A stretch of DNA of 54,336 nt. It comes from a virus. Lineage: Duplodnaviria > Caudoviricetes. Numbering within the stretch: the stretch's first letter is position 1; each line of letters opens with the position of its first letter. The stretch spans positions 1-54,336 of IMG/VR virus record IMGVR_UViG_3300017788_000031; one strand, given 5' to 3'. Position numbers and translations under genes: made by a program. Shown here piece after piece: positions 6,884 through 36,590 of this stretch. The notes beneath the pieces were generated by a model. That model saw nothing but the letters and a program-made list of their open reading frames with translations, made no database searches and was not told the DNA's origin.

Positions 6884-6913
6884 AAAAAGGGGAGTGTCTT
6901 TGAAGACACTCCC
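6884..6913 (-). terminator. Terminator built on the 16-bp palindrome (copy at 6894-6909)
   Basis: Minus strand reads GGGAGTGTCTTCAAAGACACTCCC-CTTTTT just after the capsid stop. Confidence 0.75.
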
Positions 6914-11958: not shown

Positions 11959-14204
11959 CGAATCAATTGGCTTGTGTTTCCGTCATTCTTGTACCTTGCG
12001 AAGTTAATACTTATTTTGGATTCTTTTTTCTCGGGCATATAAAGATGTTTTTGGTTAGCCATTATAGCTAATCCTGAGCTGATAGATGCGTCAAACTTTG
12101 TTCGGTCATTAATATCAAACTTTGCCCAATCCTCAAGGGTTCTTGTAAATAGCATTGACCCCATTTCTTCGGGGTCTCTATAGCTACCCGTCAAATCCAT
12201 TCCAATGAACTTCTCAATGTATGATTCTATCGCGGCAGCGTGAGCCTGCTTCACGTCCTCAGATGAGTTCGGTATTCCTCCAAGTTCGCGCTCAGTCTTA
12301 GATAGTTTAGCATACTGCTTGTCGGGCCTGTTCATACAGAACCCACGGTATCCTCTATTCTTAAAGTGGTATAATAGGCGAGGCTTGTTGTTTTCTGCCA
12401 AGATAGGCATCCCATAAAACACGCAGGCCATAAGCACCTCCTCAAAAAATATCTCAGCCGTTTGTGGTCGTGCGACATACTCTAAAAAAAATTCATTTGC
12501 CGGGGCTTCATCCATATGGAACTTGGTCATTCCGTGAAGAGAACCGTTTGACCCGCGACCATCTACGACCGCAGAGATATCGTATGAGTCACATCCGAAA
12601 GAACCCATATGCTCATTGCCCGGGTACTTGATTCCATTTCGCAGGTGCACATTGTTTTGCATTTGCTTAGGAGGAACCCAACTGATTGCAAAACGCCCAC
12701 GCTTATCAGGCATAAATATGACCTGCGTATCCTTGATGCCATCCTTCCACATAAAGCTACCGCGAGTTACGTGTTGGTCAATTATCAAGGAGTCATTGTA
12801 GTCAATCTGCTGATAAATCTTAGTTAGGTTAAATAGGGCTTGCTTGCTCTCATCACGGAATGCGTGAGACTCGGTACGTGGGAACTGACGGTAAAATTCA
12901 TTGAGTGCATCTGAGTCGTGCTTTAGTGAATCAACCTCAGCCTCCCAATAATCTATAGCTCCATTAAAAATCCAATTGCCGTCAACTCCTCTGACTTTCT
13001 CTTGAGGCTTTCTAAACACAGGCATACCGTGTATATCAATGAAGCCCTCCATATTCCACTCCATCGGAATGAACAGAGAATACATCCCACTCTTGGTCTG
13101 TCCGTTAGCGTTACGCACACCTATGCGTGAATCCTCATATAGTTTTTTAAAGTTTTCTCCTCCCTTGCTCAAGGCATTTGAGGTAGACCCCATCATACAC
13201 TTCCCAATTATTTTGCTACCCAAACGTAAACACGTCTTGGTTACGCGCCAATTGTTTAGGATGTTGTTTGGCTTTACCCATTTACCCGACTCATCGTGAG
13301 CCAAGAACGCTAACTTCTCACCGTCATAGGAGTTCTCCTCAGTGTTCTTCCAATCTATGGTGGTGTCCAATCCTTCTATCTCTTCAGCTGAGGACTCGTA
13401 CATATTCTTCTTTGTAATCTTGGAAGCAGGAACACGAAACGCCAACTCAGTCTTTGGCTTGTCCATCCCATCCATAATTGGCCTAAAGAAAAACGGCAGT
13501 CTGCTATTAATAGGAACAACCTTATCTGTAAACATCTTCTTGGCATCAGCTCCCGTCTTTGACAGTATACCGACACGTGAGTCACGCGCAAGTGTGCCAA
13601 TATTGACGCACTCAGACGAGGCCATAAAAGAAAATCCCGAGCGCCTAATCTTTAGATATATCATACCGAATGCTCTTGGGTCTGCCTTGCACGCTTCCCA
13701 AAACAAAAAGAAGATTCTGTTAGCCTCACGAAAGTCAGGATATCCCACGTCAATACTTGACCATTGCAGATACATATAGTGAGCACCCGTGATATAGCAG
13801 GGCTTGCCATTATTCATAAACCAAAAGCCATCTTCTCTATGGTCAAACTCTTTTTCAATGTAGTCAACCCATCGGTCTTTAAACTCTTTGGGCTTCTCGT
13901 TCCATTGAAAGATAGACTGAATCTTTGCAAGCTCTTTAGGTAGCTCTCGCCTCTCCCAATATTGTTCCGATGGTTTGAAGTGTCTTTGAAGACACTCTTT
14001 AGGTGTAGCGGGTAAAGCGATATTGAGGCCCGATATATTTATTATCTCACCTATATCTCCCGTCTTAGAGATTACTACAATGTCGTGCTTTTCGTCATAA
14101 CCGTACGCCCAACTCTTTGCCTTGTTCTTTTTTGAAAGAGTGGCTGTTGGTATAAGGTCACGTACTAAAAAGTACAACGAGTTATTTAGACCTTCGTTCT
14201 GCAA
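11955..14204 (-). CDS. terL: Terminase large subunit
   Basis: Walker A-like KIRRSGFS, Walker B LAHDESGK, coupling motif GSTS, nuclease-domain FGCDSYD. Confidence 0.9.
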   Translation of the reverse strand: MQNEGLNNSLYFLVRDLIPTATLSKKNKAKSWAYGYDEKHDIVVISKTGDIGEIINISGLNIALPATPKECLQRHFKPSEQYWERRELPKELAKIQSIFQWNEKPKEFKDRWVDYIEKEFDHREDGFWFMNNGKPCYITGAHYMYLQWSSIDVGYPDFREANRIFFLFWEACKADPRAFGMIYLKIRRSGFSFMASSECVNIGTLARDSRVGILSKTGADAKKMFTDKVVPINSRLPFFFRPIMDGMDKPKTELAFRVPASKITKKNMYESSAEEIEGLDTTIDWKNTEENSYDGEKLAFLAHDESGKWVKPNNILNNWRVTKTCLRLGSKIIGKCMMGSTSNALSKGGENFKKLYEDSRIGVRNANGQTKSGMYSLFIPMEWNMEGFIDIHGMPVFRKPQEKVRGVDGNWIFNGAIDYWEAEVDSLKHDSDALNEFYRQFPRTESHAFRDESKQALFNLTKIYQQIDYNDSLIIDQHVTRGSFMWKDGIKDTQVIFMPDKRGRFAISWVPPKQMQNNVHLRNGIKYPGNEHMGSFGCDSYDISAVVDGRGSNGSLHGMTKFHMDEAPANEFFLEYVARPQTAEIFFEEVLMACVFYGMPILAENNKPRLLYHFKNRGYRGFCMNRPDKQYAKLSKTERELGGIPNSSEDVKQAHAAAIESYIEKFIGMDLTGSYRDPEEMGSMLFTRTLEDWAKFDINDRTKFDASISSGLAIMANQKHLYMPEKKESKISINFARYKNDGNTSQLIR
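13980..13995. repeat. 16-bp palindrome copy inside terL
   Basis: GTGTCTTTGAAGACAC. Confidence 0.95.
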
Positions 14205-22708: not shown

Positions 22709-24333
22709 AGCGCCTCCTCCTTTGCAACCGCCTCATAACTACGAGCCATTGTGATAATTGCGTTTGTGCTCAGAATCGTAGTAGCCACACTCACCGCATT
22801 TTGCAGCGCACTACGAGTCACCTTCATCGGGTCAACTACACCCATCTCAATGAGGTCACCCATCTCACCCGTCTTTAGGTTATACCCCTCTCCATCCTTT
22901 ACGCCACCATTGTAGATGTTAGTCACACACAATCCCGCGTTCTCAAGAATCTGAGTAAGCGGAGCTTGAAGAGCTGACTGCATAATCTTCATAGCGGCCC
23001 GATATTCATCGCTTGAGTCGTCAGACAGCATATCAGTCAGGTTAATCTCAGAAAGTGCCTTCCCGGCCCCCGAAACGATTCCTTCCTCAAGCGCAGAACG
23101 TACCGCACACACCGCATCATCCACTCGGTCATATAACTCCTTCTGCTCAATGTCAGTGTTGCCACCCACAAAGATGACCCCAATGCCCCCCGTCAATGAC
23201 GCAATACGCTCCAAGATGAAATCTTTGTCAGCCTTCTTCTTAGCCACAGCGTGAGCAGACCATAACTCACTCACCCGCTCAGCAATCACCTCAGGCTTAA
23301 CCCGAGCGTCAGACTTTAGTATCACCGTCTTGTCCCTCGACACAATCACCTTAGCCGCGTGACCAAGGCTACCATAGTTGATTAGACTCAAGTCATCACC
23401 CGTCTTCTCACTAAAGTACGTAGCACCAACACTCAATGCAATATCCTGCATCAACTCGTGCTGCTTGTAACCAAAGTTAGGTGGAGCCACAGCACACACC
23501 TTCACATTCCCCTTCATCACATTCGCAGCAAGCGTGTTCACCACGTTCACATTACACGGTGAAATGATTAAAAGCTTCTTCCCCTCACTGATGATTGGCT
23601 TGAGCACATTCTCAATCTGCAAGATGTTCGATATCTCCATATCAGCAACCAACACCATCACATCCTCAAAGATGCACTCGTCCTTCTTCTGATTGTTGAT
23701 GAACAGCGGTGACAAATACCCACGGTCAAACTTCAACCCCATCGTTGTCTCCGAATACGTCTCAGAGGTCTGCGACTTCTCAACGGTAACTATGCCCGTC
23801 TTGCCAACCTCCTTGTAAACCTTCGCGATGATTGAACCTATCTCCTTGTCATTGTTCGATGAGATAGTAGCTACATCAAGAAGCATTGAACTCGAAAGCT
23901 TCTTGCTCTTCTTCTTCAACTTGTCCACCACCTTGTCCGTTATCTCCACCATATGACGCAAGACCTGCGTCCGATTATGCTTCTCAGTAATATGCTCAAG
24001 ACCCCCAAGAACCAAAGCCTCCGTCAACACAATGGCCGTTGTCGTGCCATCACCCGCTGCCGTTGCCGTCCTGTCTGCCGCCTCCCGCATCATCCGAACC
24101 GCAAGGTTCTCTGTCGGGTCGAAAAGCTCAACAGCCTTCGCAACCGTTACACCATCCTTGGTCACAGTAATCCCGTGCGTATGGTGAGGCGACTCAATCA
24201 ATACAGTATTCCCGTTCGGTCCCAACGTGCTCTTTACAGCACGAGCCATCTTCGTAATACCCTTTATCAACTTCTCTCTGCCATTAGCCCCAAAGTGTAA
24301 ATCCTTCGGAGAGTAACCTTGATTGTCTATCAT
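22705..24333 (-). CDS. groEL: Chaperonin GroEL (542 aa, start MIDNQG)
   Basis: TLGPNG, TKDGVTVAK, GDGTTT, GVVDPMKV; -7 element TATATTTG at 24356-24363. Confidence 0.97.
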   Translation of the reverse strand: MIDNQGYSPKDLHFGANGREKLIKGITKMARAVKSTLGPNGNTVLIESPHHTHGITVTKDGVTVAKAVELFDPTENLAVRMMREAADRTATAAGDGTTTAIVLTEALVLGGLEHITEKHNRTQVLRHMVEITDKVVDKLKKKSKKLSSSMLLDVATISSNNDKEIGSIIAKVYKEVGKTGIVTVEKSQTSETYSETTMGLKFDRGYLSPLFINNQKKDECIFEDVMVLVADMEISNILQIENVLKPIISEGKKLLIISPCNVNVVNTLAANVMKGNVKVCAVAPPNFGYKQHELMQDIALSVGATYFSEKTGDDLSLINYGSLGHAAKVIVSRDKTVILKSDARVKPEVIAERVSELWSAHAVAKKKADKDFILERIASLTGGIGVIFVGGNTDIEQKELYDRVDDAVCAVRSALEEGIVSGAGKALSEINLTDMLSDDSSDEYRAAMKIMQSALQAPLTQILENAGLCVTNIYNGGVKDGEGYNLKTGEMGDLIEMGVVDPMKVTRSALQNAVSVATTILSTNAIITMARSYEAVAKEEAL

Positions 24334-24385
24334 TTGATTGGATTTAATTATGGAGCAAATATAAACCAACTTCACAAAATAGCAA

Positions 24386-24556
24386 GATGTCGGAATGTCA
24401 AAGTTTATCCCTCCCTACTCTCTCTCTATTTCCCCTCCTTTTATTATTTATTTATATAGTAGAAACTTCTCTTAAAATCGACATAATCGACATAAATAAT
24501 AATAATCAATAAGTTAGCTAAAAAAAATCTCTCATAAAAATGACATAGTAATGTCG
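24386..24556. other. Origin-like AT-rich element, copy A
   Basis: CT-rich tract, GACAT repeats, IHF-consensus AATCAATAAGTTA at 24504-24516; similar to 36431-36590. Confidence 0.5.
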
Positions 24557-25084: not shown

Positions 25085-25390
25085 CGTAGGGGTTCGGGGT
25101 AACCCCCCACGGCACGCTCGCCACCCCCCTCGCGGAAGTGCCCCTCGAGCAAGGGGGTGGGGGTCGGTTTTGGTCGCCCCCTGTGGACGTTTTTGGCTTT
25201 TTGCCCTGCGCCACCTGCACCCCCATAGCCCCCTGCCCGACAGGCAGTGCACCGATATAGGTGCACCGCCCTGCACCCGTCACCGCGTCCCCCTGTCACC
25301 CCCTCCGCCCCCCTCCGTCCCCCTGTGGAGTGTCTTCAAAGACACGGCAGGAGCGGTGAGAGATGGGGCTACACCCCTGCACCCCCCGTC
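25085..25390. other. GC-rich non-coding divergence region with G/C tracts; candidate genome end or packaging site
   Basis: Many C4-C6 runs; transcription diverges from here. Confidence 0.5.
25330..25345. repeat. 16-bp palindrome copy
   Basis: GTGTCTTCAAAGACAC. Confidence 0.95.
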
Positions 25391-26213: not shown

Positions 26214-26239
26214 GGGTGGTGTCTTCAAAGACACTGCCC
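26214..26239 (+). repeat. Palindrome hairpin (core 26219-26234) without a ribozyme
   Basis: GGGTG-GTGTCTTCAAAGACAC-TGCCC; the extension uses G-U pairs on the plus strand. Confidence 0.9.
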
Positions 26240-27177: not shown

Positions 27178-27192
27178 GGTTGACAGGGGCGA

Positions 27193-27208
27193 GTGTCTTC
27201 AAAGACAC
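27193..27208. repeat. 16-bp palindrome ahead of hammerhead 1
   Basis: GTGTCTTCAAAGACAC. Confidence 0.95.
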
Positions 27209-27213
27209 CGCCC

Positions 27214-27267
27214 TCCTGTCCACAGGTAGTTGCCTGTGCTGATGAGTCCACGAAGGACGAAACAGGA
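27214..27267 (+). ncRNA. Type III hammerhead ribozyme 1; predicted cut after GUC at 27220
   Basis: TCCTGT-C, stem I CACAGG/CCTGTG, CTGATGA, stem II GTCC-ACGAA-GGAC, GAAA, CAGGA. Confidence 0.95.
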
Positions 27268-27285
27268 ACACAAATACAATTTAAT

Positions 27286-27498
27286 ATGACAACAACAACA
27301 AACAATTTTGGTGAAAAGGTTACAAAGTGGGAAAGCACTAAGCACCCTACTAACCCTAATTTTATGCAGCGCGTTTTTTGGACAGTATGGGAAAAGCCTG
27401 ATGGGAAAGTTAGTGTTGGTTACAAGTTGGACGGCAATGGCAAAACTTGGTTTTTATACAACCTAACTAAAGATGAAGCAATTGAAAGATATAGTTAA
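27286..27498 (+). CDS. Hypothetical protein (70 aa, start MTTTTN)
   Basis: Start revised to the ATG after the ribozyme. Confidence 0.7.
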   Translation: MTTTTNNFGEKVTKWESTKHPTNPNFMQRVFWTVWEKPDGKVSVGYKLDGNGKTWFLYNLTKDEAIERYS

Positions 27499-27646
27499 GC
27501 AAGGCGGCAAACGAAAAGGGGCAGGTCGAAAACCTGCTCCTTACCAAACCAAAACTATTGCCTTTCGTGTCCGTGCCGAATGGGTTCAAGTGATAAAGTC
27601 AACGGTAAAAGCTAAAGTTGCGGAGTTGTCGCAAAATAGCAGCTAA
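27473..27646 (+). CDS. Small DNA-binding-like protein (57 aa); not in ORF track
   Basis: GGKRKGAGRKP followed by a TIAFRV strand and a helix (ribbon-helix-helix-like). Confidence 0.65.
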   Translation: MKQLKDIVKQGGKRKGAGRKPAPYQTKTIAFRVRAEWVQVIKSTVKAKVAELSQNSS

Positions 27647-27828
27647 CGACACAGCACTTGCAGTGCTTTTACTTGACTACGCGCTGTGGTTGTCGGGTGC
27701 TCAGAATGATATGAGCATAAACCCACAGGCGAACGGGTCAATGTACCACGCAACGCCACCGCCCACACCTGTGCAGTGGTAGTGCACAGCCCTGTGCAAT
27801 GAGCACCCCGAAGCTAACAACAACGGGG

Positions 27829-27875
27829 TGTTCATAACTTTTACTTGACATTGTTCATTCAATGTCGTACCTTTG
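27829..27875 (+). promoter_or_regulatory. Early promoter with box and internal inverted repeat
   Basis: TGTTCATAACTT, then TTG-N20-TACCTTTG, with GACATTG/CAATGTC in the spacer. Confidence 0.8.
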
Positions 27876-27907
27876 TCAAAAATTAGTTCATTTAATACTC
27901 ATAACAT

Positions 27908-28090
27908 ATGTCACACACGTCAAAACAAATCGTTCTTCTATGCGCCCTTATGGTGGTGCTATCAACAACCCTCATTTCAATTGGACACCTATACGGCATT
28001 GCTGTGTCGGTGGTAATCGGCTACCTGTGCAGTGTATTTGCACTGCTGTCAATGGTGGCTGTCGCATACGAGTCAAACCCTAAACACTAA
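27908..28090 (+). CDS. Small two-TM membrane protein
   Basis: 60 aa, hydrophobic. Confidence 0.6.
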   Translation: MSHTSKQIVLLCALMVVLSTTLISIGHLYGIAVSVVIGYLCSVFALLSMVAVAYESNPKH

Positions 28091-28095
28091 TCGCT

Positions 28096-28338
28096 ATGAG
28101 CGCACAAAAGAAAAAAGAAATCTACAGCCAACACTTAGTCGGACGCGGCTTTTATATGTGCCCGTCTTGCAAGGAAGTCCACTTAGGCGGCTTGACAATT
28201 GAGAACCTTGACGATGACAGCGATGAGCTTCCGCAGGTCTATTGCAGGTACGGCTGTGGCTATATCTTCCTACCGAATTTACTTTTAAACAACACCCCAC
28301 CACGTAACGAGTGGTGGAAAAAACACCTATCAAAATGA
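28096..28338 (+). CDS. Zinc-ribbon protein
   Basis: CPSC...CRYGC. Confidence 0.65.
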   Translation: MSAQKKKEIYSQHLVGRGFYMCPSCKEVHLGGLTIENLDDDSDELPQVYCRYGCGYIFLPNLLLNNTPPRNEWWKKHLSK

Positions 28339-28676
28339 GCGCAATGCAAAACTACATTTTGGTTTCACGCACGTATGCGGAGACCACCCCTGAGAGTGCT
28401 GAGCAGGGTAGCTTCTCAGCCATCGGCTTCATCACTGACTGCGAGGTGCTGTCATTCAGAGAGCTTGTGTACCTGCTACGTGACCACGTGCACCCGTCTG
28501 AGTCGGGTGAGCCATCTGTGCACACGTGGTTCACAGGTGATGAATACGTGACTGACTACAGGACGTGCACCAACAGGCAAGAGAGCGTCCACTTTCACTC
28601 AGACAACAACGTGCACGCGGGCAGGTATTGGGTGCTTGCGTGCAAGATAGCGCACGCAAAGCGTAACCTGCTGTGA
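28335..28676 (+). CDS. Hypothetical protein (start MSAMQN)
   Basis: ATGA overlap with the upstream gene. Confidence 0.7.
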   Translation: MSAMQNYILVSRTYAETTPESAEQGSFSAIGFITDCEVLSFRELVYLLRDHVHPSESGEPSVHTWFTGDEYVTDYRTCTNRQESVHFHSDNNVHAGRYWVLACKIAHAKRNLL

Positions 28677-28687
28677 GCAGGGCGTGA

Positions 28688-28703
28688 GTGTCTTTAAAGA
28701 CAC
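28688..28703. repeat. 16-bp perfect palindrome ahead of hammerhead 2
   Basis: GTGTCTTTAAAGACAC. Confidence 0.95.
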
Positions 28704-28705
28704 TC

Positions 28706-28754
28706 CCGTAGTAGGATGAGTGTCCTACCTGATGAGACCAAAAGGTCGAAACGG
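28706..28754 (+). ncRNA. Type III hammerhead ribozyme 2; predicted cut after GUA at 28710
   Basis: CCGT-A, GTAGGA-TGAGTG-TCCTAC, CTGATGA, GACC-AAAA-GGTC, GAAA, CGG. Confidence 0.95.
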
Positions 28755-28776
28755 AAATCAAATTAAATCTAATCAA

Positions 28777-29112
28777 ATGAAAGCACTATTTCTTTCAGCG
28801 GTAATGTTTATCGCACTGCAATCAAGAGCGCAATCAGCGCAAACCAAGCGCCCCGAAGGTTTCGTGAGCGTTGAAACCATCAACAACAACGCGGCACGCG
28901 CCCTGTTCCTTGAGCTACAGGACGAGGGCACAATCGTGTACGAGGGACAGGATGAGGACACAGGTATGGCAATGTACACCCTGTTCTTCGATGAGTGCAC
29001 TATTCAGTACGCCTACGAGCCTGAGATACTTGAGTTCATCAAGACGGGCAAGTTTGAGTACAATGACTTTCTAATCGAGAACTATCAAGTAATTAAAACC
29101 CCACAACAATGA
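28777..29112 (+). CDS. Exported protein with signal peptide (111 aa, start MKALFL)
   Basis: MKALFLSAVMFIALQSRA-Q resembles a Bacteroidota signal peptide with Gln at +1. Confidence 0.65.
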   Translation: MKALFLSAVMFIALQSRAQSAQTKRPEGFVSVETINNNAARALFLELQDEGTIVYEGQDEDTGMAMYTLFFDECTIQYAYEPEILEFIKTGKFEYNDFLIENYQVIKTPQQ

Positions 29113-29282
29113 GACAAGAGTATATGGGAATCAGCGGCAAGGTTAGCCATGACCCCGAATTAACCAAGCAATACAATGCCCTGCTTCAACAGCTAGGCTC
29201 AGAAGGTATGCTCGTCCTTATCGAACGATGGATGGATGATGAAGACCTCAATTCAATAATTCAATACAACGACAACTACTAA
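29109..29282 (+). CDS. Hypothetical protein (57 aa); not in ORF track
   Basis: MRQEYMGISGKVSHDPELTKQY...; ATGA overlap. Confidence 0.6.
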   Translation: MRQEYMGISGKVSHDPELTKQYNALLQQLGSEGMLVLIERWMDDEDLNSIIQYNDNY

Positions 29283-29295
29283 ACACAACACGCAA

Positions 29296-29436
29296 ATGAA
29301 AATCAATCACACAACGTGGTATAGAACGTACCACACCCCGCACATTTCAGTTATCAATTCTACCGACTATGTGCAAATCTCACTCATAATTCTGAACCAC
29401 CATTGGTGGGTAATCGTAGAAAAAAAACGCAAATAA
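29296..29436 (+). CDS. Hypothetical protein (46 aa) between 23-bp direct repeats
   Basis: MKINHTTWYRTYHTPHISVINS... Confidence 0.5.
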   Translation: MKINHTTWYRTYHTPHISVINSTDYVQISLIILNHHWWVIVEKKRK

Positions 29437-29449
29437 ACACAACACGCAA

Positions 29450-29614
29450 ATGAAAAGAGTAATTGCCACAGCGGTGTTCGCCCTTGGAATATGGGCGGCA
29501 TCAGAGATTGACAAGCAAATGCTACTGAAGGAATGCGTGAAGCGCACCGAAGGCACGGACACAGATTGTGAAGAGTGCTACAAAAAAGTGTACGGCACGT
29601 ATCCTACTGACTAA
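29450..29614 (+). CDS. Small protein with hydrophobic N-terminus and three Cys (54 aa)
   Basis: MKRVIATAVFALGIWAASEID...ECVKRTEGTDTDCEECY. Confidence 0.6.
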   Translation: MKRVIATAVFALGIWAASEIDKQMLLKECVKRTEGTDTDCEECYKKVYGTYPTD

Positions 29615-29618
29615 CAGG

Positions 29619-29664
29619 TGTTGATAACTTTATTTGACATCGTTCATTACTTGTCGTATCTTTG
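29619..29664 (+). promoter_or_regulatory. Early promoter with box
   Basis: TGTTGATAACTT, then TTGACA...TGTCG-TATCTTTG. Confidence 0.8.
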
Positions 29665-29697
29665 CGCAAAATTAGTTCAAACATTTAACATTACACA

Positions 29698-30342
29698 ATG
29701 ACCAACACAACACCAACGTGGGCACTCATCATAGATGGAGTACCCCACACAACAGGACTTACAAAGGCAGAGGCTCAGTCTCTGTTTGTCAAGCACACAG
29801 CCCGTGACCCACACAGCGAGGTTGAGATGTACATTAAAGAAGAAACCCACGTTATGCGGTACGCAGTGAGCGGAGCAAACGAGGACGAGGTGAATGTCTA
29901 CCTTGAAGACGGGGGCGTAGTCGGCCTGTACATAAACGAGGATGGCGGCCACGTCACGAGCGTGTACTATCATAGCAGGCCGAACCTGTTCGACAAGTAT
30001 ATGTGGCACGAACTTGCCGAGGGCGACAGCCACTACAAAGATTGGGAGGGTGAGAAAGTTATCACGGAAAAGATTGTGCACGATGCACTACATTGGCTGT
30101 GCCCTATGGCTGATGGGTTCAGGCAGGTTGACAGGGAGCTGTTGTTTGACGGCTACAACAAGGGCAGGAAGCAGGAGCTTGACAAGTCAGCCCTGCTGAA
30201 TGCCGCACGTATATTGATTGAGGCACGCAGTGGGCGCAAGGTTGAGCTGATTGAGTTTGAGGACGGCTCACTACTGCGGTACAACGTAGTGTTTGAAGGG
30301 ATGGAAGCTAAGCTCTTCTTCGAGCTGAAGCAAGGATGTTAG
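29698..30342 (+). CDS. Hypothetical protein
   Basis: 214-aa ORF after the promoter. Confidence 0.75.
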   Translation: MTNTTPTWALIIDGVPHTTGLTKAEAQSLFVKHTARDPHSEVEMYIKEETHVMRYAVSGANEDEVNVYLEDGGVVGLYINEDGGHVTSVYYHSRPNLFDKYMWHELAEGDSHYKDWEGEKVITEKIVHDALHWLCPMADGFRQVDRELLFDGYNKGRKQELDKSALLNAARILIEARSGRKVELIEFEDGSLLRYNVVFEGMEAKLFFELKQGC

Positions 30343-30359
30343 TGTGTGTGTTAGGGGTG

Positions 30360-30375
30360 GTGTCTTCAAAGACAC
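30360..30375. repeat. 16-bp palindrome ahead of hammerhead 3
   Basis: GTGTCTTCAAAGACAC with GGGGTG/TGCCCC extension. Confidence 0.95.
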
Positions 30376-30379
30376 TGCC

Positions 30380-30428
30380 CCGTATCGAGATGAGTGTCTC
30401 GACTGATGATTCCAAAAGGATGAAACGG
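30380..30428 (+). ncRNA. Type III hammerhead ribozyme 3; predicted cut after GUA at 30384
   Basis: CCGT-A, TCGAGA-TGAGTG-TCTCGA, CTGATGA, T-TCC-AAAA-GGA-T, GAAA, CGG. Confidence 0.9.
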
Positions 30429-30450
30429 AAACTCTAACACATTTAATTTT

Positions 30451-30867
30451 ATGTCACACCCAATTAAAGTAACAAGCGATGGCTACGTATGGTGCATCGT
30501 AACCTACGCGGCAAAGGAGCTGTTCAGCTCAGGCTCACTATCAATCTACGCCCTGCACGATGACGAGAGCGAGACCCTTATTGAAACGCACGAGCAGTTG
30601 CAAGACGCGCTCGATGGCGGCACGCCAATCGGCATTGACGTTGGTCACCTGTACACGCTTGAGAATATCAAGGAGCAACTCAAAGCTAAGGGCTATCACG
30701 CTGAGGCTCTATGGCACACGTGCGATGTCACTAATAAGTACGAGTGCACCGATGACGAGGCATATGAACTACTTGACAAAGCAATAGACGTGACAATCGA
30801 GGACGTGAACAACGAGATTGACTACAGAGCTGAAGGAAAATATAAATATAAAACCAACGAACAATGA
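30451..30867 (+). CDS. Acidic hypothetical protein
   Basis: 138-aa ORF after the ribozyme. Confidence 0.75.
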   Translation: MSHPIKVTSDGYVWCIVTYAAKELFSSGSLSIYALHDDESETLIETHEQLQDALDGGTPIGIDVGHLYTLENIKEQLKAKGYHAEALWHTCDVTNKYECTDDEAYELLDKAIDVTIEDVNNEIDYRAEGKYKYKTNEQ

Positions 30868-31244
30868 AGATGACACTAACACCACAGGAATCAGAGGACT
30901 TTTTCTACAACTCTTTGTGTAACGGACTTGGATACATTGAGAGTGGATATGAACTCGAGCTAACCTTTGACGAGGACGAATACAAACAGGCACAGAGCAA
31001 ACTTGAGTCGCCCTGTTATGAGGACGTGCTGATGCAAATTCTCAGAGACGGCAAAGCCCTGACCCTCGTTGACATTGGGTGCGAGGGTGAGTACACCTCA
31101 GTAATTGTGATGAGTGACGTACACGAGCGCGTACAGGACACACCGATACGTCACCTGATGGATGCCATCAATGAGAATGATGACGCTGTCACCGCTGACG
31201 TGATATTGCAACAGGTATTTTTTAAAGAAACTATATTTGGATAA
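30864..31244 (+). CDS. Acidic hypothetical protein
   Basis: 126 aa ending DAVTADVILQQVFFKETIFG. Confidence 0.75.
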   Translation: MKMTLTPQESEDFFYNSLCNGLGYIESGYELELTFDEDEYKQAQSKLESPCYEDVLMQILRDGKALTLVDIGCEGEYTSVIVMSDVHERVQDTPIRHLMDAINENDDAVTADVILQQVFFKETIFG

Positions 31245-31246
31245 CT

Positions 31247-31537
31247 ATGGCACTAAGTAAACTCATAAAAGACTACGACTTCAACTCAGCGGATGAATAC
31301 TACGAGTACATCCTTGAGACCATTGGCAACGGACAACGAACGCAAGCACGCCACCTTTATCAATCAATGGAGAGAGGAGAGAGGAACGAGTTCTTCGATT
31401 GGTTAGAGACCACCTACTTCTACGAGGACGATAAGGTTGACGAGCAGATACACAACCTGCGCTTGTTCTTCGATGAGCCAACCGCTTGGGATATGTACTT
31501 GGATGAGGACGGGGAACAATTTCCAAACTATAACTAA
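31247..31537 (+). CDS. Acidic hypothetical protein
   Basis: 96 aa, in operon. Confidence 0.7.
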   Translation: MALSKLIKDYDFNSADEYYEYILETIGNGQRTQARHLYQSMERGERNEFFDWLETTYFYEDDKVDEQIHNLRLFFDEPTAWDMYLDEDGEQFPNYN

Positions 31538-31546
31538 CATAAAACT

Positions 31547-31786
31547 ATGGCAACTTCACAGCTTATCTTCAAAGTAAAAGAGTACAAGGACATCAACTCT
31601 AACAACACCTGCGAAATGTTCAGTGTCTACGCGGTTGAGTCGGATGGAATCCTGTCGGTAAAGACCAAGGTCTTTGAACGTGACTACGGCAGTCAGACTG
31701 AGTCAATCGAGGTATACATCTATGACTTCCTGCAAGGGAGGAAAGAAAAACGGGAGGGTATATGGGTATCCACCGCCACGCACTGA
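31547..31786 (+). CDS. Hypothetical protein
   Basis: 79 aa, in operon. Confidence 0.65.
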   Translation: MATSQLIFKVKEYKDINSNNTCEMFSVYAVESDGILSVKTKVFERDYGSQTESIEVYIYDFLQGRKEKREGIWVSTATH

Positions 31787-31791
31787 GCAGG

Positions 31792-31953
31792 ATGAGGACG
31801 ATGCAGGATATCATTGACGATATGAAGGAAGCGTCAAAGCAGTTCGAAGATGGTGTCGCTGACTATGAACAGACGATGCCGAGAGTGCTCAAACTGAAGC
31901 AGGAACTGCAAGACAGACTCAACCTATTGTCAATAGCCCGTAGCCCGTCTTGA
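31792..31953 (+). CDS. Small coiled-coil protein
   Basis: MRTMQDIIDDMKEASKQFEDG...; start uncertain. Confidence 0.5.
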   Translation: MRTMQDIIDDMKEASKQFEDGVADYEQTMPRVLKLKQELQDRLNLLSIARSPS

Positions 31954-31962
31954 AAATTTAAC

Positions 31963-31993
31963 TTGACATTGTCTATTGAATGTCGTACCTTTG
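31963..31993 (+). promoter_or_regulatory. Early promoter with internal inverted repeat
   Basis: TTGACATT...AATGTCG-TACCTTTG, same spacing as the promoters at 27845 and 29634. Confidence 0.8.
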
Positions 31994-32052
31994 TGCAAAT
32001 TATGTTCAACAGGGTTCTGTGTTTAGTACACTGCCCACAAATCTAATCATCT

Positions 32053-33117
32053 ATGTGTGTAATCATCATCAAACAAAAGGGTATGCGACTGCCTGTAAGT
32101 GTCGCCAAATCATCAGCACGAATCAATCCTCACGGGCTTGGAGTCATATGGCTCGACACCTTTGAGGTTACCTATCACGAGTCCAAGGACTACAGGACTC
32201 TCGACACTAAGCGTCCGTTCATTGCCCACTTCCGCTACGCTACCATTGGTGCAATCAACAAGGAGAACACGCACCCGTTTCAGTGCGGTAGCAACAAGCA
32301 CGAGTGGCTTATGATGAACGGCACTATCCACGGGCTTGGCACTGCTGAGATATCAGACACCCGTGCGCTTGCAATGTCGCTTGGCGAGATACCCCGTCAC
32401 ACGTGGAAGAAGGAGCTTGAGTCCTACCCGTGCAGGTTCGTCACCATCAACACACGCAACCGCACCTATCAGATTTACAACAAGGAGCTGTGGACACAGC
32501 GCGATGGCATATGGTATTCCAAGGACAACGTACTTGAGGAACACTTGGTTGCTGTGTACGGCACACTCAAGAAGGGCAACTCAAACTACTTCAACTACCT
32601 GCGCTCATCAGGATACCTTGGCAGTGGCGAGACCAAAGACAGATACCCACTGATTGTTGACGGCCTGCCCTACCTCATCGAGAAGAAGGGCATCGGGTAC
32701 AACGTAGACGTTGACGTGTTCAAGGTCAGTGGCGATACACTTGCTGAGCTTGACAGACTCGAGGGTCACCCACGTTGGTACGTACGCAAGCAGGTACAGA
32801 TACAGATGAAGAAGCGCGTGCTCACCTGTTGGATATACTTCAACGGCACTGACGTGAAGGACGGGGCTAAGTTTCACAAGAGCTATGTGCCTGTAAAGTA
32901 CAAGGTCAAGCCTGCCCCTGTGTGGGAAAAGCAGGTCGCAATGTGGGAGGATGACGAGCCGACAGAGATGTTTGACATTGCACCGCCTGCAAACAAGGAG
33001 CACATACCAATCTGTATCAACTGCTACAATGACCTTGAGTTCGATGGGTTCAGCCACTACCACTGCCACGCCTGCAATGGGTGGTTCACGGGTAGCGAGG
33101 TGATTAACTTCGGCTAA
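32053..33117 (+). CDS. Class II glutamine amidotransferase fused to gamma-glutamylcyclotransferase (AIG2-like) and a C-terminal zinc ribbon
   Basis: N-terminal MC, NPHGLG, HFRYATIG, NTHPF, SDT; then VAVYGTLKKG and LDRLEG; then CINC...CHAC. Confidence 0.88.
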   Translation: MCVIIIKQKGMRLPVSVAKSSARINPHGLGVIWLDTFEVTYHESKDYRTLDTKRPFIAHFRYATIGAINKENTHPFQCGSNKHEWLMMNGTIHGLGTAEISDTRALAMSLGEIPRHTWKKELESYPCRFVTINTRNRTYQIYNKELWTQRDGIWYSKDNVLEEHLVAVYGTLKKGNSNYFNYLRSSGYLGSGETKDRYPLIVDGLPYLIEKKGIGYNVDVDVFKVSGDTLAELDRLEGHPRWYVRKQVQIQMKKRVLTCWIYFNGTDVKDGAKFHKSYVPVKYKVKPAPVWEKQVAMWEDDEPTEMFDIAPPANKEHIPICINCYNDLEFDGFSHYHCHACNGWFTGSEVINFG

Positions 33118-33126
33118 GACAAGGGG

Positions 33127-33142
33127 GTGTCTTCAAAGACAC
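33127..33142. repeat. 16-bp palindrome ahead of hammerhead 4
   Basis: GTGTCTTCAAAGACAC with GGGG/TCCC extension. Confidence 0.95.
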
Positions 33143-33146
33143 TCCC

Positions 33147-33195
33147 CCGTATTGGGGTGTGTGCCCCAACTGATGATTCCGAAAGGATGAAACGG
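33147..33195 (+). ncRNA. Type III hammerhead ribozyme 4; predicted cut after GUA at 33151
   Basis: CCGT-A, TTGGGG-TGTGTG-CCCCAA, CTGATGA, T-TCC-GAAA-GGA-T, GAAA, CGG. Confidence 0.9.
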
Positions 33196-33219
33196 AAATC
33201 TAATTAAATCTAATTCACA

Positions 33220-33645
33220 ATGGACAGAACAAGTAAGTCAGCAGAAAAAAGATGGACTGCGTACGTCAAGAAATGCGCAGAGCTAAAAACCTTTGACCAC
33301 CAAGTACTGCGCAAGGAGTACAGCATAGACGCACGGGTAATCAAGACCCTTGTCGATATGGGTTGGGCGATATCATCCAAGAAGGGTAAGTACAATTGGA
33401 TATGCCCTCACCCTCTAAGCGACAGCGACATCAGCGTATTTGTCAAGGCTCACAGGGAGTACATCAAAAAGTTTATGCCGACCACAACTAAGTATGACAA
33501 GCTAAAGTTTGAGACCGCACCGCTCAGAGCTAAGTACGAGATACTCGATAGCAAGGTTGACATCACTGAGGAGCAGGCGATTGAGAGACTTCGCATCGCG
33601 GGTGGATATGAGATATACAAGGTGGAAAAAAAATCAATCCTATGA
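33220..33645 (+). CDS. Hypothetical protein
   Basis: 141-aa ORF after the ribozyme. Confidence 0.7.
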   Translation: MDRTSKSAEKRWTAYVKKCAELKTFDHQVLRKEYSIDARVIKTLVDMGWAISSKKGKYNWICPHPLSDSDISVFVKAHREYIKKFMPTTTKYDKLKFETAPLRAKYEILDSKVDITEEQAIERLRIAGGYEIYKVEKKSIL

Positions 33646-35919: not shown

Positions 35920-35973
35920 GGTGGGGTGCGCGTAACAGGGTTGCCTTGAGAGGTTCGAGTCCTCACCCCACCG
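35920..35973 (+). ncRNA. tRNA-like element lacking an anticodon arm
   Basis: Acceptor GGTGGGG/CCCCACC and T-arm GAGG-TTCGAGT-CCTC; only 22 nt between the acceptor 5' strand and the T-arm. Confidence 0.6.
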
Positions 35974-35977
35974 CAAA

Positions 35978-35993
35978 GTGTCTTCAAAGACAT
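35978..35993. repeat. Palindrome copy with one change
   Basis: GTGTCTTCAAAGACAT. Confidence 0.9.
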
Positions 35994-36430: not shown

Positions 36431-36590
36431 GTGTCAATTATGCCATATGGAGACCCCCTACTATCTCTATATATACTTCTCTCTCTCTCTTTTTTTTATT
36501 ATTATTATTTTAATTTAAAAATTGACATAAAAGACATAGACACTATGAGCCAATCACTTAGCTAAAAAAAATCTATCACAAAATCGGCAT
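36431..36590. other. Origin-like AT-rich element, copy B, directly upstream of the primase-helicase
   Basis: CT repeat, TTA repeat, GACAT repeats; shares TTAGCTAAAAAAAATCT with copy A. Confidence 0.55.

What the first reader, a model, noticed from the sequence alone, without database searches (positions are those of the whole stretch)
27182..33220. Repeated palindrome-hairpin + hammerhead ribozyme + translation-start cassette punctuating the early region
Seen: four units share one layout: stop codon, hairpin containing GTGTCTT(C/T)AAAGACAC, type III hammerhead starting 2-5 nt after the palindrome, 18-24 nt A-rich leader, ATG. The hammerheads are at 27214-27267, 28706-28754, 30380-30428 and 33147-33195. 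All keep CUGAUGA, GAAA and a GUH cut site. Stem I has four different sequences that all pair fully (CACAGG, GTAGGA, TCGAGA, TTGGGG), which is covariation within one genome. Loop I always starts with U and loop II ends with A, matching the tertiary contact known from fast natural hammerheads. Inference: the phage cuts its own early transcripts without host RNases. The upstream mRNA would keep a protective 3' hairpin, and the downstream mRNA would get a structured 5'-OH end, analogous to RNase III processing of T7 early RNA. The shared cassette could also act as a recombination point for swapping early genes; 26214-26239 looks like a hairpin-only version. Phage hammerheads are known, but I do not know of this fixed coupling to a genome-wide palindrome.
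Basis: partly seen in the sequence, partly recalled or inferred. Interest (0 to 1): 0.93.

Follow-up and report, generated by a model that had tools for sequence, protein, structure and literature searches.

The report
Hairpin-plus-hammerhead units between phage early genes
Four genuine self-cutting hammerhead RNAs, each joined to a conserved hairpin and a short A-rich leader, lie between early genes of an uncultured freshwater phage and probably cut its long messages into separately protected pieces, a populous variant of an arrangement known in phages since 2011.

Summary
A covariance model finds exactly four type III hammerheads in the window (27215-27267, 28705-28756, 30379-30430, 33146-33197; 62.8-75.1 bits, next best 9.8). 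All keep the catalytic core and covary strongly. Rfam's model scores them below its gathering threshold.

Each hammerhead abuts a GC-clamped hairpin built on GTGTCTTYAAAGACAC, which occurs at 12 sites in the window (0.1 expected). An 18-24 nt A-rich leader and an ATG follow.

The coupling holds in relatives:
- In six roughly 60-kb genomes, 15 of 17 hammerheads follow the palindrome and 2 follow other hairpins.
- Among 135 distinct hammerheads from IMG/VR, 128 abut a stable hairpin.

The coupling is not obligatory. About 80% of palindromes have no ribozyme. MW202828.1 has 14 copies of a sister palindrome, GTGTCGTTAACGACAC, and no hammerhead. An Elemovirus has a hammerhead without a hairpin.

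The most likely role is self-processing of host-transcribed early polycistronic mRNA, leaving a 3' hairpin upstream and a defined 5'-OH leader downstream. This is inferred; no RNA data were available.

What recognises the invariant GTGTC/GACAC arms is unresolved.

It is a new variant of the clustered phage hammerheads of Perreault et al. 2011. This scan found the same design earlier on other DNA (e1-6258751, e1-6285829, e1-6245968).

The parts
27182..27220 (+). Hairpin 1. Palindrome core 27193-27208, GC extension with one bulged A. Its outermost arm (27182-27187) can also pair with the stem III strand 27215-27220.
   Evidence: Sequence. MFE fold -42.1 kcal/mol, z -4.97. Repeat family D2.
27215..27267 (+). 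Hammerhead 1, type III. GUC cut site, predicted cleavage after 27220. Stem I CACAGG/CCUGUG, stem II GUCC/GGAC.
   Evidence: R1 62.8 bits. RF00008 23.8 bits, from a partial alignment that skips stem I. Alignment A1.
27268..27288 (+). 18-nt A-rich leader and the ATG (27286) of a 70-aa ORF.
   Evidence: The ORF translates without stops.
28682..28709 (+). Hairpin 2. Palindrome core 28688-28703, with the TTTAAA centre.
28705..28756 (+). Hammerhead 2, type III. GUA cut site, predicted cleavage after 28710. G10.1-C11.1.
   Evidence: R1 74.9 bits. RF00008 37.1 bits, E 2.7e-5.
28757..28779 (+). A-rich leader and the ATG (28777) of a 111-aa ORF.
30354..30381 (+). Hairpin 3. Palindrome core 30360-30375. 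The extension GGGGUG/UGCCCC contains two G-U pairs that pair only on the + strand.
30379..30430 (+). Hammerhead 3, type III. GUA cut site, predicted cleavage after 30384. U10.1-U11.1 variant. 91.5% identical over 47 nt to the Bruynoghevirus (PaP3-group) hammerhead.
   Evidence: R1 75.1 bits. RF00008 29.6 bits. blastn. L008 sequence.
30431..30453 (+). A-rich leader and the ATG (30451) of a 138-aa ORF.
33123..33146 (+). Hairpin 4. Palindrome core 33127-33142.
33146..33197 (+). Hammerhead 4, type III. GUA cut site, predicted cleavage after 33151. U10.1-U11.1 variant.
   Evidence: R1 74.9 bits. RF00008 29.8 bits.
33198..33222 (+). A-rich leader and the ATG (33220) of a 141-aa ORF.
26214..26239 (+). 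Hairpin-only unit: stop codon, hairpin, 20-nt A/C-rich leader, ATG at 26260. No ribozyme.
   Evidence: Fold -18.0 kcal/mol, z -3.9. No R1 hit.
27836..27890 (+). 55-nt promoter-like repeat, copy 1 (TTGACA ... TAccTTTG). With copies 2 and 3 it places each of cassettes 2-4 about 0.7-1.2 kb downstream of a likely host-type promoter.
   Evidence: Repeat family D3. The Bacteroidota -7 consensus TAnnTTTG is recalled, not tested.
29625..29679 (+). Promoter-like repeat, copy 2.
   Evidence: The sigma-70-type scan also lists 29634-29662.
31954..32008 (+). Promoter-like repeat, copy 3.
6894..6909 (-). Same palindrome used as a terminator-like hairpin: GGGA extension followed by CUUUUU, after the 472-aa virion protein gene.
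   Evidence: Fold -23.5 kcal/mol, z -6.0.
13980..13995 (-). Palindrome inside the large terminase gene (codes ECLQRH). It is kept at the same place in five relatives; MW202828.1 codes DCYARS there.
35978..35993 (+). One-mismatch copy of the palindrome without a GC extension, between the exonuclease gene and the next gene.

Best explanation
The four elements are cis-acting type III hammerhead ribozymes of the sTRSV tertiary-contact class. Each is the middle part of a three-part intercistronic RNA module.

(1) A stable hairpin follows directly after the upstream stop codon. Its core is this clade's GUGUC-N6-GACAC palindrome, clamped by a variable GC-rich extension.

(2) The hammerhead comes next. 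Its open stem III starts 0-1 nt from the base of the hairpin.

(3) An unstructured, A-rich, G-poor leader of about 20 nt runs into the next ATG.

The region is probably transcribed by the host polymerase, from the three repeated TTGACA...TAnnTTTG promoter-like elements and one further upstream.

As the polymerase passes a module, the ribozyme folds and cuts after its GUH triplet. The upstream message is left ending in the hairpin plus 5-6 nt with a 2',3'-cyclic phosphate. The downstream message starts with a 5'-OH inside stem I and always has the same leader. Each downstream gene block is thereby uncoupled in stability and translation from what lies upstream.

The hairpin may also stack on the short stem III (4-6 bp). 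That could help folding and still allow quick product release.

The hammerhead is an optional insert into an older and commoner unit of hairpin, leader and ATG. That simpler unit punctuates early genes across this phage group.

Shown here: ribozyme identity, linkage, architecture and conservation. Inferred: cleavage in vivo, the consequences for the RNA ends, and the promoter assignment.
For: Identity:
- The core C3-A9, G12-A14, A15.1-U16.1 and H17 are intact in 4 of 4.
- In 15 sequences, 95.1% of 225 cells pair and 13 of 15 pairs show changes on both sides. 0 of 500 shuffles reach the observed % paired or covariation score. Slid controls pair at 34.7-49.7%.
- In 120 distinct sequences, 96.1% of 1799 cells pair; stem I pairs at 99.9%.
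- Among 138 distinct copies, the core is CUGAUGA in 114, CUGACGA in 19 and CUGAAGA in 3 (position 7 is free in the consensus). The remaining 2 are listed as CTGATGAT. H17 is C in 85, A in 45 and U in 8. Every loop I variant among the 12 commonest listed starts with U, and every listed loop II variant ends in A.
- The U10.1-U11.1 form of units 3 and 4 is a documented natural variant. The PaP3 phage hammerhead is listed among active variants (PMC3088659, passages and the Fig S6 legend). The Bruynoghevirus copy I read has the same U-U.

Linkage:
- Window: 4 of 4 hammerheads follow the palindrome.
- Whole records G001-G005: 11 of 13 follow it. The other 2 follow other hairpins with z -3.45 and -3.26.
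- Of 135 distinct hammerheads with enough flank, 109 follow the exact palindrome (one of them rescued by eye), 3 follow a variant with 1-2 mismatches, and 16 follow another abutting stable hairpin. 7 have none.

Architecture:
- The hairpin base is 0 nt (44) or -1 nt (33) from stem III in 77 of 108 cassettes.
- The commonest distance from hammerhead to the first ATG is 17-23 nt. Leader composition is A 50% and G 4%.

RNA-level hairpin:
- The GC extension varies in sequence but stays paired.
- G-U outnumbers A-C by 34 to 13 on the strand that reads TTCAAA.
- Intergenic copies are oriented with transcription 26 to 2.

Optional insert:
- After the conserved GGCT-domain gene, the site is palindrome plus hammerhead in 4 of 6 genomes, palindrome only in 1, and neither in 1.
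- In MW202828.1 that site is palindrome, leader and ATG with no ribozyme.

No terminator-type T-run follows the four hairpins.

The published idea that clustered phage hammerheads process long transcripts into gene-length mRNAs comes with in vitro and E. coli cleavage of other examples (PMC3088659, passages).
Against: - There is no RNA evidence of any kind for this phage.
- Rfam's curated model scores all four copies below its gathering threshold.
- Nearest-neighbour folding puts the stem III 5' strand inside the extended upstream hairpin in units 1-3. Only unit 4 shows stem III in the MFE, so cleavage could be slow or conditional.
- Units 3 and 4 have a mismatch at the most conserved stem II pair.
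- The invariance of the GTGTC/GACAC arms is not explained by a plain stabiliser hairpin. Neither are the copies inside coding DNA without an extension and without strand bias (16 sense, 13 antisense, from crude ORF calls).
- A relative as close as MW202828.1 manages without any hammerhead, so the ribozyme is dispensable for the basic design.
- The loci used for the large counts were collected through the palindrome or the linked pattern. That inflates the linked fraction. The whole-record counts (15 of 17) share the bias, because those records were also chosen through the palindrome. The two TerL-selected records that bear on the question go the other way.
Confidence: 0.7

Rival explanations
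1. The palindrome is first of all a binding site for a sequence-specific dimeric protein, acting on DNA or on the RNA stem. Possible roles are operator, roadblock, early shut-off factor or a hairpin-specific nuclease. The hammerhead sits beside it because cleavage is controlled by that protein or cooperates with it. This can coexist with the best explanation.
For: - The five-base arms GTGTC/GACAC are invariant while the 6-nt centre differs between lineages: TTCAAA or TTTAAA here, GTTAAC in all 14 copies of MW202828.1.
- 31 other centres were found in front of the hammerhead pattern in IMG/VR contigs, including four different centres in one contig, L246. Fixed half-sites with a free spacer are typical of dimer-bound sites.
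- Copies lie inside genes without a GC extension (13980, 19959, 40538, 51374).
- The terminase copy is kept in 5 of 5 relatives, although MW202828.1 encodes different residues there.
- Intragenic copies show no strand bias (16 to 13).
Against: - No binding protein was identified.
- The one conserved ORF that MW202828.1's record labels 'repressor' has no Pfam or PDB sequence match (window 21795-22241).
- 16 of 135 hammerheads use unrelated GC hairpins in the same position, so the ribozyme does not need these arms.
- The innermost pair of the centre mostly covaries (U-A, C-G, G-C), with U-G 10 against A-C 4.
- The outer extension has G-U pairs on the sense strand only. This points to a folded RNA rather than duplex DNA.
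Confidence: 0.25
2. The upstream hairpin is a built-in switch. Its extension competes with stem III for the cleavage-site strand, so cutting is delayed or made conditional, for instance on a ribosome terminating at the stop codon 5 nt upstream.
For: - In unit 1, GACAGG (27182-27187) pairs with CCUGUC (27215-27220) in the MFE and the centroid.
- Units 2 and 3 also bury 2-3 stem III bases.
- The hairpin is transcribed about 45 nt before the stem III 3' strand.
Against: - Among 108 cassettes the hairpin overlaps stem III by 2 nt or more in only 13. 77 are flush or overlap by 1 nt. The count ignores bulged stems, so unit 1 itself is missed.
- Energy models predict the hammerhead junction poorly.
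- Unit 4 folds with stem III free.
Confidence: 0.1
3. The cassette is mainly a portable recombination or mobility module. Early genes are exchanged at it, and ribozyme activity is secondary.
For: - In six genomes the conserved genes F2 and F3 are followed, across the cassette, by different and mostly unique ORFs.
- The ribozyme is present or absent at the same site in different genomes.
- Hammerhead 3 is 91.5% identical over 47 nt to that of Pseudomonas Bruynogheviruses, which are otherwise unrelated. 65 of the 66 matching records are Pseudomonas phages.
Against: - Gene-content breakpoints fall in intergenic DNA in any phage, so the coincidence is expected.
- Stems covary and the core is intact in 120 distinct copies. 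That shows selection on the folded ribozyme, not merely on a DNA homology patch.
- The shared DNA is only about 90 nt, of which the stems differ.
Confidence: 0.15
4. The palindrome is a hairpin promoter for a phage-borne RNA polymerase, as in N4. Transcripts would start just 3' of it, and the hammerhead would trim off the triphosphate end.
For: - In MW202828.1 most of the 14 copies lie 15-40 nt upstream of early-gene ATGs.
- The hammerhead starts 0-9 nt after the palindrome in 109 of 111 cassettes.
- The phage encodes a 3717-aa virion-type protein.
Against: - No polymerase domain was found. The giant protein hits only ART-PolyVal in Pfam and unnamed PHROGs. This was a sequence-profile test only.
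- Host-type promoter repeats are present.
- One copy is followed by a U-run at a late gene end.
- Unrelated hairpins substitute for the palindrome.
- G-U pairs lie on the sense strand, which would be A-C mismatches on the template strand.
Confidence: 0.04

Closest known systems
Clustered cis-acting hammerheads flanking single genes or short gene blocks in prophages and phages (Perreault et al. 2011, PMC3088659; passages read, supplements not seen)
   Same: - Several hammerheads lie within a few kb in the sense orientation between phage genes whose identities vary.
- The proposed role is the same: processing long phage transcripts into gene-length mRNAs.
- The paper notes a halovirus hammerhead 13 nt before a start codon, which parallels the short distance from ribozyme to ATG here.
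   Different: - In the passages I read, those arrays are not described as fused to a conserved hairpin, and no repeated palindrome or fixed leader is mentioned.
- Here the ribozyme is one part of a fixed module of hairpin, ribozyme and leader. The module recurs at least 128 times in IMG/VR contigs and is tied to a clade-wide GTGTC-N6-GACAC motif.
- The paper's Dataset S1 alignments could contain metagenomic members of this subfamily. I could not open them.
PaP3 / Bruynoghevirus type III hammerhead upstream of the first early gene (PMC3088659, methods and Fig S6 legend; sequence read in KF856712.1)
   Same: - 91.5% identity over 47 nt to unit 3.
- Same U10.1-U11.1 stem II opening, a similar UGNGUG-type loop I (UGCGUG there, UGAGUG in unit 3), the same AAAA loop II, and a GUA cut site.
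- It lies directly before an ATG.
   Different: - There is a single copy per genome, in a Pseudomonas phage.
- There is no palindrome, and the upstream structure is not significant (z -1.10).
- There is no leader: stem III runs straight into the ATG.
RNase III processing sites between phage T7 early genes, and intercistronic stabiliser hairpins such as REP elements
   Same: A polycistronic early message is cut between cistrons and the upstream product is left ending in a stem-loop. Hairpins at 3' ends protect against exonucleases.
   Different: The cut here would be made by the RNA itself, next to the hairpin rather than within it. It gives 5'-OH and 2',3'-cyclic phosphate ends instead of 5'-phosphate and 3'-OH.
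Synthetic ribozyme insulators of the RiboJ type
   Same: A hammerhead placed before a coding sequence removes variable upstream RNA, so the gene always has the same 5' leader.
   Different: - This one is natural, sits between cistrons rather than after a promoter, and has its accessory hairpin on the 5' side of the ribozyme.
- It is followed by an A-rich leader that lacks a Shine-Dalgarno sequence.
Hairpin-plus-hammerhead arrays noted earlier in this scan on other phage DNA (e1-6258751, e1-6285829, e1-6245968)
   Same: As summarised in those notes, the design is the same: a hairpin or palindrome, then a type III hammerhead, then about 20 nt, then the next early gene. The phages are Bacteroidota-type and about 60 kb.
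   Different: Those are other genomes, and I did not re-examine them. New here:
- the sister palindrome without ribozymes in MW202828.1;
- the variable-centre series in front of hammerheads;
- the flush hairpin/stem III geometry;
- the gain or loss of the ribozyme at the same site in different genomes.

Membership tests
Hammerhead ribozyme, type III | Catalytic core C3 U4 G5 A6 N7 G8 A9 ... G12 A13 A14 | tested here: met
   CUGAUGA and GAA are present in 4 of 4 window copies. In 138 distinct relatives the core is CUGAUGA in 114, CUGACGA in 19 and CUGAAGA in 3; the other 2 are listed as CTGATGAT. The consensus definition is taken from PMC3088659 methods.
Hammerhead ribozyme, type III | A15.1-U16.1 pair followed by the cleavage-site nucleotide H17 (not G) | tested here: met
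   The U-A pair is invariant in 15 of 15 and 120 of 120 sequences. H17 is C, A, A, A in the window, and C 85, A 45, U 8 in relatives.
Hammerhead ribozyme, type III | Three helices around the core, supported by covariation; stems I and II closed by loops, stem III open | tested here: met
   95.1% and 96.1% of cells pair, 13 of 15 pairs change on both sides, and slid controls pair at 34-50%. Caveats: A2 is fitted to the model, and 'pairs with a change on both sides' was also reached by 51 of 500 shuffles on A2.
Hammerhead ribozyme, type III | Watson-Crick pair at 10.1-11.1 next to the core | tested here: inconclusive
   G-C in units 1 and 2; U-U in units 3 and 4. Relatives: GC 100, UU 26, AA 11, GU 1. 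PMC3088659 reports U-U as a natural variant that supports more cleavage than other mispairs (passage).
Hammerhead ribozyme, type III | Score at or above the Rfam RF00008 gathering threshold (48.5 bits) | tested here: not met
   37.1, 29.8, 29.6 and 23.8 bits; nothing is listed at gathering. The losses come from the 6-nt loop I insertion, the short loop II, the short stem III and the U-U mismatch. The core columns are not the cause.
Hammerhead ribozyme, type III | Loop I / loop II tertiary contact (U next to position 1.6, final A of the stem II tetraloop) | tested here: met
   This is a sequence-level test only. Stem I is 6 bp, loop I starts with U and loop II ends with A in 4 of 4. T13 and the loop II adenines are invariant in A1. 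The feature is described in PMC2553840 (passage). The three-dimensional contact was not modelled.
Hammerhead ribozyme, type III | Mg2+-assisted self-cleavage giving 2',3'-cyclic phosphate and 5'-OH ends | not testable with these tools
   This needs transcription assays or end-specific RNA-seq.
Clustered phage hammerhead arrays (Perreault et al. 2011) | Several hammerheads close together, in the sense orientation, flanking genes or short gene blocks of a phage | tested here: met
   Four copies lie within 6 kb on the coding strand, separated by 5, 5 and 6 ORFs in my crude ORF map. Five relatives have 1-4 copies each.
Intrinsic (Rho-independent) terminator | GC-rich hairpin followed directly by a U-run | tested here: not met
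   None of the four cassette hairpins, nor the one at 26214, is followed by a T-run or listed by the scan. The copy at 6894 does meet the definition (GGGA...UCCC then CUUUUU).
N4-type hairpin promoter for a virion RNA polymerase | A phage-encoded (virion) RNA polymerase is present | tested here: not met
   There is no polymerase family in PHROGs or Pfam for the 3717-aa protein or the other large ORFs tested. Only sequence profiles were used, so a very divergent enzyme is not excluded.

The most novel reading that the evidence does not exclude
The GUGUC-N6-GACAC hairpin is the docking site of a dedicated phage or host protein. Because it stacks flush on stem III, that protein decides whether and when the hammerhead folds. 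This would make it a protein-gated natural hammerhead that times the splitting, or the shut-off, of early messages. The ribozyme-free hairpins would be the same control points served by a protein nuclease or repressor.
Probability: 0.1. Interest if true: 0.8.

Novelty: new variant of a known kind. Interest (0 to 1): 0.45.

Why it matters
The biological purpose of bacterial and phage hammerheads is still called an open question in the 2019 review I read in passages (PMC6765202).

This phage group offers an unusually clean natural system for testing it.
- It has a fixed, repeated module of hairpin, ribozyme and leader.
- There are more than a hundred natural sequence variants.
- Sister genomes carry the same site with and without the ribozyme.
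- There is a cultured distant relative (Elemovirus on Flavobacterium) with a single copy.

Together these make it possible to test what self-cleavage adds to an intercistronic hairpin: RNA stability, translation of messages that lack a Shine-Dalgarno sequence, or timing.

There is also a practical point. These ribozymes fall below Rfam's threshold, so routine annotation misses them.

The module could serve as a ready-made insulator part for Bacteroidota.

Tried and rejected
- RNA evidence: no RNA holder was listed for window:26100-33400. The four runs listed are DNA contigs from freshwater metagenomes.
- Rfam at gathering gave nothing. Other weak Rfam hits in the region (sn1502, Atu_C9, MIR5286, ClpQY_promoter, CC0196; E 0.18-8.4) were dismissed as chance.
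- ARAGORN finds no tRNA or tmRNA in the window.
- Cultured relatives chosen by terminase similarity were searched for the palindrome with up to 1 mismatch, for the GTGTC-N6-GACAC frame, and with R1. These were Cellulophaga phages phi13:2 and phi38:1, Tenacibaculum phage Gundel_1 and Elemovirus elemoF. Result: no palindrome in any of them, and one hammerhead, in the Elemovirus only.
- For MW202828.1, the full-model search with filters off covered only 38000-60850. The rest was covered by the looser first-look search.
- The MW-type palindrome linked to a hammerhead pattern occurs in 0 IMG/VR stretches.
- I looked for a candidate binding protein by asking which window ORFs are kept in all five palindrome-bearing relatives but are absent from MW202828.1. 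Only the 97-aa ORF 16974-17267 qualifies, and it has no Pfam match. Once MW202828.1 turned out to have its own palindrome the test lost its logic, and I dropped it.
- The ORF 21795-22241, whose homologue in MW202828.1 is labelled 'repressor' in that record, has no Pfam or PDB sequence match. No structure was predicted.
- Host identity: the linked pattern in genome contigs gave 3 stretches on 2 MAG contigs. One is binned as Cytophagales (56 kb) and one as Alphaproteobacteria (44 kb). Both look like binned phage contigs, so this is only a weak host hint.
- Literature: 0 papers contain the 16-mer. In the 15 top-ranked rows I looked at, no paper combined 'hammerhead' with Flavobacterium or Cellulophaga phage. 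Only PMC3088659 combined 'hammerhead' with PaP3, LUZ24 or Bruynoghevirus. The searches gave no description of a hairpin-coupled phage hammerhead in their listings. The library lacks most subscription journals, and supplements were closed. Fig S6 and Dataset S1 of PMC3088659 may bear on novelty.
- Not used: structure prediction, fold search, complex prediction, the search of protein representatives, the search for homologous proteins, the protein-atlas search.

Full report
WHAT THE WINDOW IS

The window is a whole IMG/VR virus record of 54,336 bases, estimated about 90% complete.
- Its large terminase is 81.6% identical to that of the uncultured podovirus MW202828.1.
- It is 46% identical to those of Flavobacterium Elemoviruses and 31-38% to those of Cellulophaga and Tenacibaculum phages.
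- Genes run leftward from about 25.3 kb (portal, terminase, virion proteins, a GroEL-like chaperonin).
- They run rightward from 25.5 to 43.1 kb. This stretch holds many small ORFs without family, a GGCT-domain protein, a Sak annealing protein, an exonuclease, a primase/helicase and a helicase.
- A 3717-aa leftward ORF with an ART-PolyVal domain follows.
- The finding lies in the rightward block, which I take to be early. That is an inference from gene content.

THE OBSERVATION

- The 16-mer GTGTCTTYAAAGACAC, allowing up to 2 mismatches, occurs at 12 sites where 0.1 is expected.
- The hammerhead core pattern occurs 6 times where 0.24 is expected.
- A covariance model (R1) was built from the four copies, ten copies from relatives and one Bruynoghevirus copy. 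Run with filters off over both strands, it finds only the four units at 62.8-75.1 bits; the next best hit is 9.8 bits.
- Rfam reports nothing at gathering. In E-value mode RF00008 hits the same four places with 37.1, 29.8, 29.6 and 23.8 bits against a threshold of 48.5. A routine annotation would therefore miss them.

ARE THEY HAMMERHEADS?

- The core, the A15.1-U16.1 pair and a non-G cleavage nucleotide are intact in all four.
- In the 15-sequence alignment, 95.1% of 225 cells pair and 13 of 15 pairs change on both sides. No shuffle of 500 reaches the observed pairing or covariation score, and slid partners pair at only 34.7-49.7%. One measure, further pair types, was reached by 181 of 500 shuffles.
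- In 150 model hits (120 distinct), 96.1% of 1799 cells pair and stem I pairs at 99.9%. This alignment is fitted to the model, which favours it.
- Units 3 and 4 open stem II with U-U. Perreault et al. describe this as a natural variant that cleaves better than other mispairs, and they list the PaP3 phage ribozyme among active variants (PMC3088659, passages and a figure legend; the figure itself was not seen).
- Unit 3 is 91.5% identical over 47 nt to the copy in PaP3-group Pseudomonas phages. 65 of the 66 matching records are Pseudomonas phages. The copy I read has the same U-U and runs straight into the ATG of orf01.
- Stem I is 6 bp, loop I starts with U, and the stem II tetraloop ends with A. 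These are the sequence features of the conserved Hoogsteen pair of sTRSV-class hammerheads (PMC2553840, passage).

LINKAGE TO THE HAIRPIN

In the window, 4 of 4 hammerheads follow a palindrome and 4 of 12 palindromes are followed by a hammerhead.

Five complete or nearly complete IMG/VR relatives have terminases 78-81% identical.
- They carry 13, 12, 15, 13 and 9 palindromes, allowing up to 1 mismatch.
- They carry 4, 3, 2, 1 and 3 hammerheads.
- 11 of these 13 hammerheads directly follow a palindrome. The other two follow different stable hairpins with z -3.45 and -3.26.
- With the window, that makes 15 of 17 hammerheads linked, and 15 of 74 palindromes carrying a ribozyme.

A scan of IMG/VR for the linked pattern found 70 stretches. 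R1 over 71 sources gave 150 hits, of which 138 are distinct and 135 have enough flank.
- 109 follow the exact palindrome. The script counted 108; one more was rescued by eye.
- 3 follow a variant with 1-2 mismatches.
- 16 follow an unrelated hairpin that abuts the ribozyme.
- 7 follow no convincing hairpin. Five of these share another upstream motif.

These loci were collected through the palindrome, so the linked share is biased upward.

GEOMETRY

- In 108 cassettes the hairpin base is flush with stem III in 44 and overlaps it by one base in 33.
- The first ATG comes most often 17-23 nt after the ribozyme. The leader is 50% A and 4% G.

THE COUPLING IS NOT OBLIGATORY

- MW202828.1 is as close by terminase as the five relatives. 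It has no GTGTCTTYAAAGACAC.
- It has no hammerhead, judged by the first-look search of the whole record and the full-model search of 38000-60850.
- It does have 14 copies of GTGTCGTTAACGACAC, all between 43.7 and 55.2 kb. Most are laid out as stop codon, palindrome, A-rich leader and ATG.
- This is the layout of the window's hairpin-only unit at 26214-26239.
- After the GGCT-domain gene, the site is palindrome plus hammerhead in four of six genomes, palindrome only in one, and empty in one. In MW202828.1 it is palindrome only.
- The ribozyme therefore looks like an optional insert between hairpin and leader.
- An Elemovirus has one hammerhead (44 bits) before an ATG, with no palindrome and no significant upstream structure.

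WHAT IS THE PALINDROME?

Other IMG/VR contigs carry hammerheads behind GTGTC-N6-GACAC hairpins with other centres.
- Of 163 distinct pattern matches, TTCAAA accounts for 85, TTTAAA for 19, and 31 other centres for 59.
- A few of those 59 are chance matches without a ribozyme.
- One contig, L246, uses four different centres.

Evidence for a folded RNA:
- The innermost pair of the centre mostly covaries (U-A, C-G, G-C).
- The outer GC extension varies but stays paired, with G-U 34 against A-C 13 on the TTCAAA strand.
- Intergenic copies point with transcription 26 to 2 (crude ORF calls).
- One late-region copy is a textbook terminator with a U-run.

Evidence that something reads the sequence:
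- The arms are invariant.
- Copies lie inside genes without an extension and without strand bias (16 to 13).
- One copy inside the terminase gene is kept in all five relatives. The window codes ECLQRH at that spot, where MW202828.1 codes DCYARS.

I could not identify a reader protein.

LIKELY MECHANISM

Three 55-nt repeats with TTGACA and TAnnTTTG lie 0.7-1.2 kb upstream of cassettes 2-4. The Bacteroidota promoter consensus is recalled, not tested. None of the four cassette hairpins has a U-run.

I therefore read the region as host-transcribed polycistronic units that are split by the ribozymes.
- The upstream piece keeps a 3' hairpin plus a few bases with a cyclic phosphate.
- The downstream piece gets a 5'-OH within stem I and a constant, unstructured leader. 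That would suit translation start in hosts without Shine-Dalgarno pairing.

This is what Perreault et al. proposed in general for phage arrays. The hairpin, the flush stacking and the fixed leader are the additions here.

Against a simple picture, energy folding buries part of the stem III strand in the extended hairpin in units 1-3. However, overlap of 2 nt or more is seen in only 13 of 108 cassettes.

GENE SWAPPING

Across six genomes the conserved genes before the cassettes are followed by different, mostly unique ORFs. This is compatible with exchange at the cassettes but does not show it.

NOVELTY

- Phage hammerhead arrays and their proposed role in processing are in print.
- I found no paper with this palindrome or with hammerheads in this phage group. 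The library has gaps and supplements were closed.
- Earlier agents of this scan reported the same design on three other genomes.
- I class it as a new, well-populated variant of a known kind. The open and more interesting point is what recognises the GTGTC/GACAC arms.

Noticed in passing
L237/L146 (MW202828.1 43745-55169): The closest GenBank relative carries 14 exact copies of a sister palindrome, GTGTCGTTAACGACAC, all in its early region. Most sit between a stop codon and an A-rich leader plus ATG. No hammerhead was found in the record. The outer arms match the window's palindrome; the centre differs.
   Followed up: yes
window 13980-13995 (-), inside the terminase gene 11955-14204: The palindrome is embedded in the coding sequence (ECLQRH). 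It is kept at the same spot in five relatives, one of them with a single mismatch. MW202828.1 encodes DCYARS there. This suggests selection on the nucleic-acid motif itself.
   Followed up: partly
L145 1500-1556 (-) = NC_055853.1 17866-17919: The cultured Flavobacterium phage vB_FspP_elemoF_6-3D has one hammerhead (R1 44 bits; CUGAAGA core, UGUGUU loop I) 14 nt before an ATG. It has no palindrome. This would be a tractable system for testing cleavage in vivo.
   Followed up: partly
L163:669, L190:9653, L176:5672, L161:7786, L179:5048: Five of the hammerheads that lack an upstream hairpin share a different conserved upstream motif, roughly CCTAAGCA-N-AAACTGCT. This may be an alternative partner element.
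   Followed up: no
window 43137-54290 (-): A 3717-aa ORF with an ART-PolyVal ADP-ribosyltransferase domain (residues 1267-1412) and matches to unnamed PHROGs. It is a polyvalent, probably ejected, virion protein. No RNA polymerase family was detected.
   Followed up: partly
window 24474-24552 and 36518-36596: Two 79-nt direct repeats, 76% alike and 12 kb apart, flank the whole early block. They are AT-rich and contain TCGACATAA-like words.
   Followed up: no
window 29280-29302 and 29434-29456: An exact 23-nt repeat, TAAACACAACACGCAAATGAAAA, spans a stop codon, a leader and a start codon of two neighbouring small ORFs. It looks like a duplicated leader without hairpin or ribozyme.
   Followed up: no
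window 35920-35975: A GGTTCGAGTCC T-arm-like sequence lies just before the palindrome copy at 35978. ARAGORN calls no tRNA there.
   Followed up: partly
window 25285-25330: A C-rich tract (repeated CCCCCT/CCGCCCC words) lies directly upstream of the palindrome copy at 25330, in the divergent gap between the leftward and rightward gene blocks.
   Followed up: no
window 22705-24375 (-): A phage-encoded GroEL-like chaperonin (phrog_5725, E 2.2e-131). MW202828.1's record annotates a chaperonin 10 kDa subunit gene next to its groEL; no co-chaperonin ORF was checked in the window.
   Followed up: no
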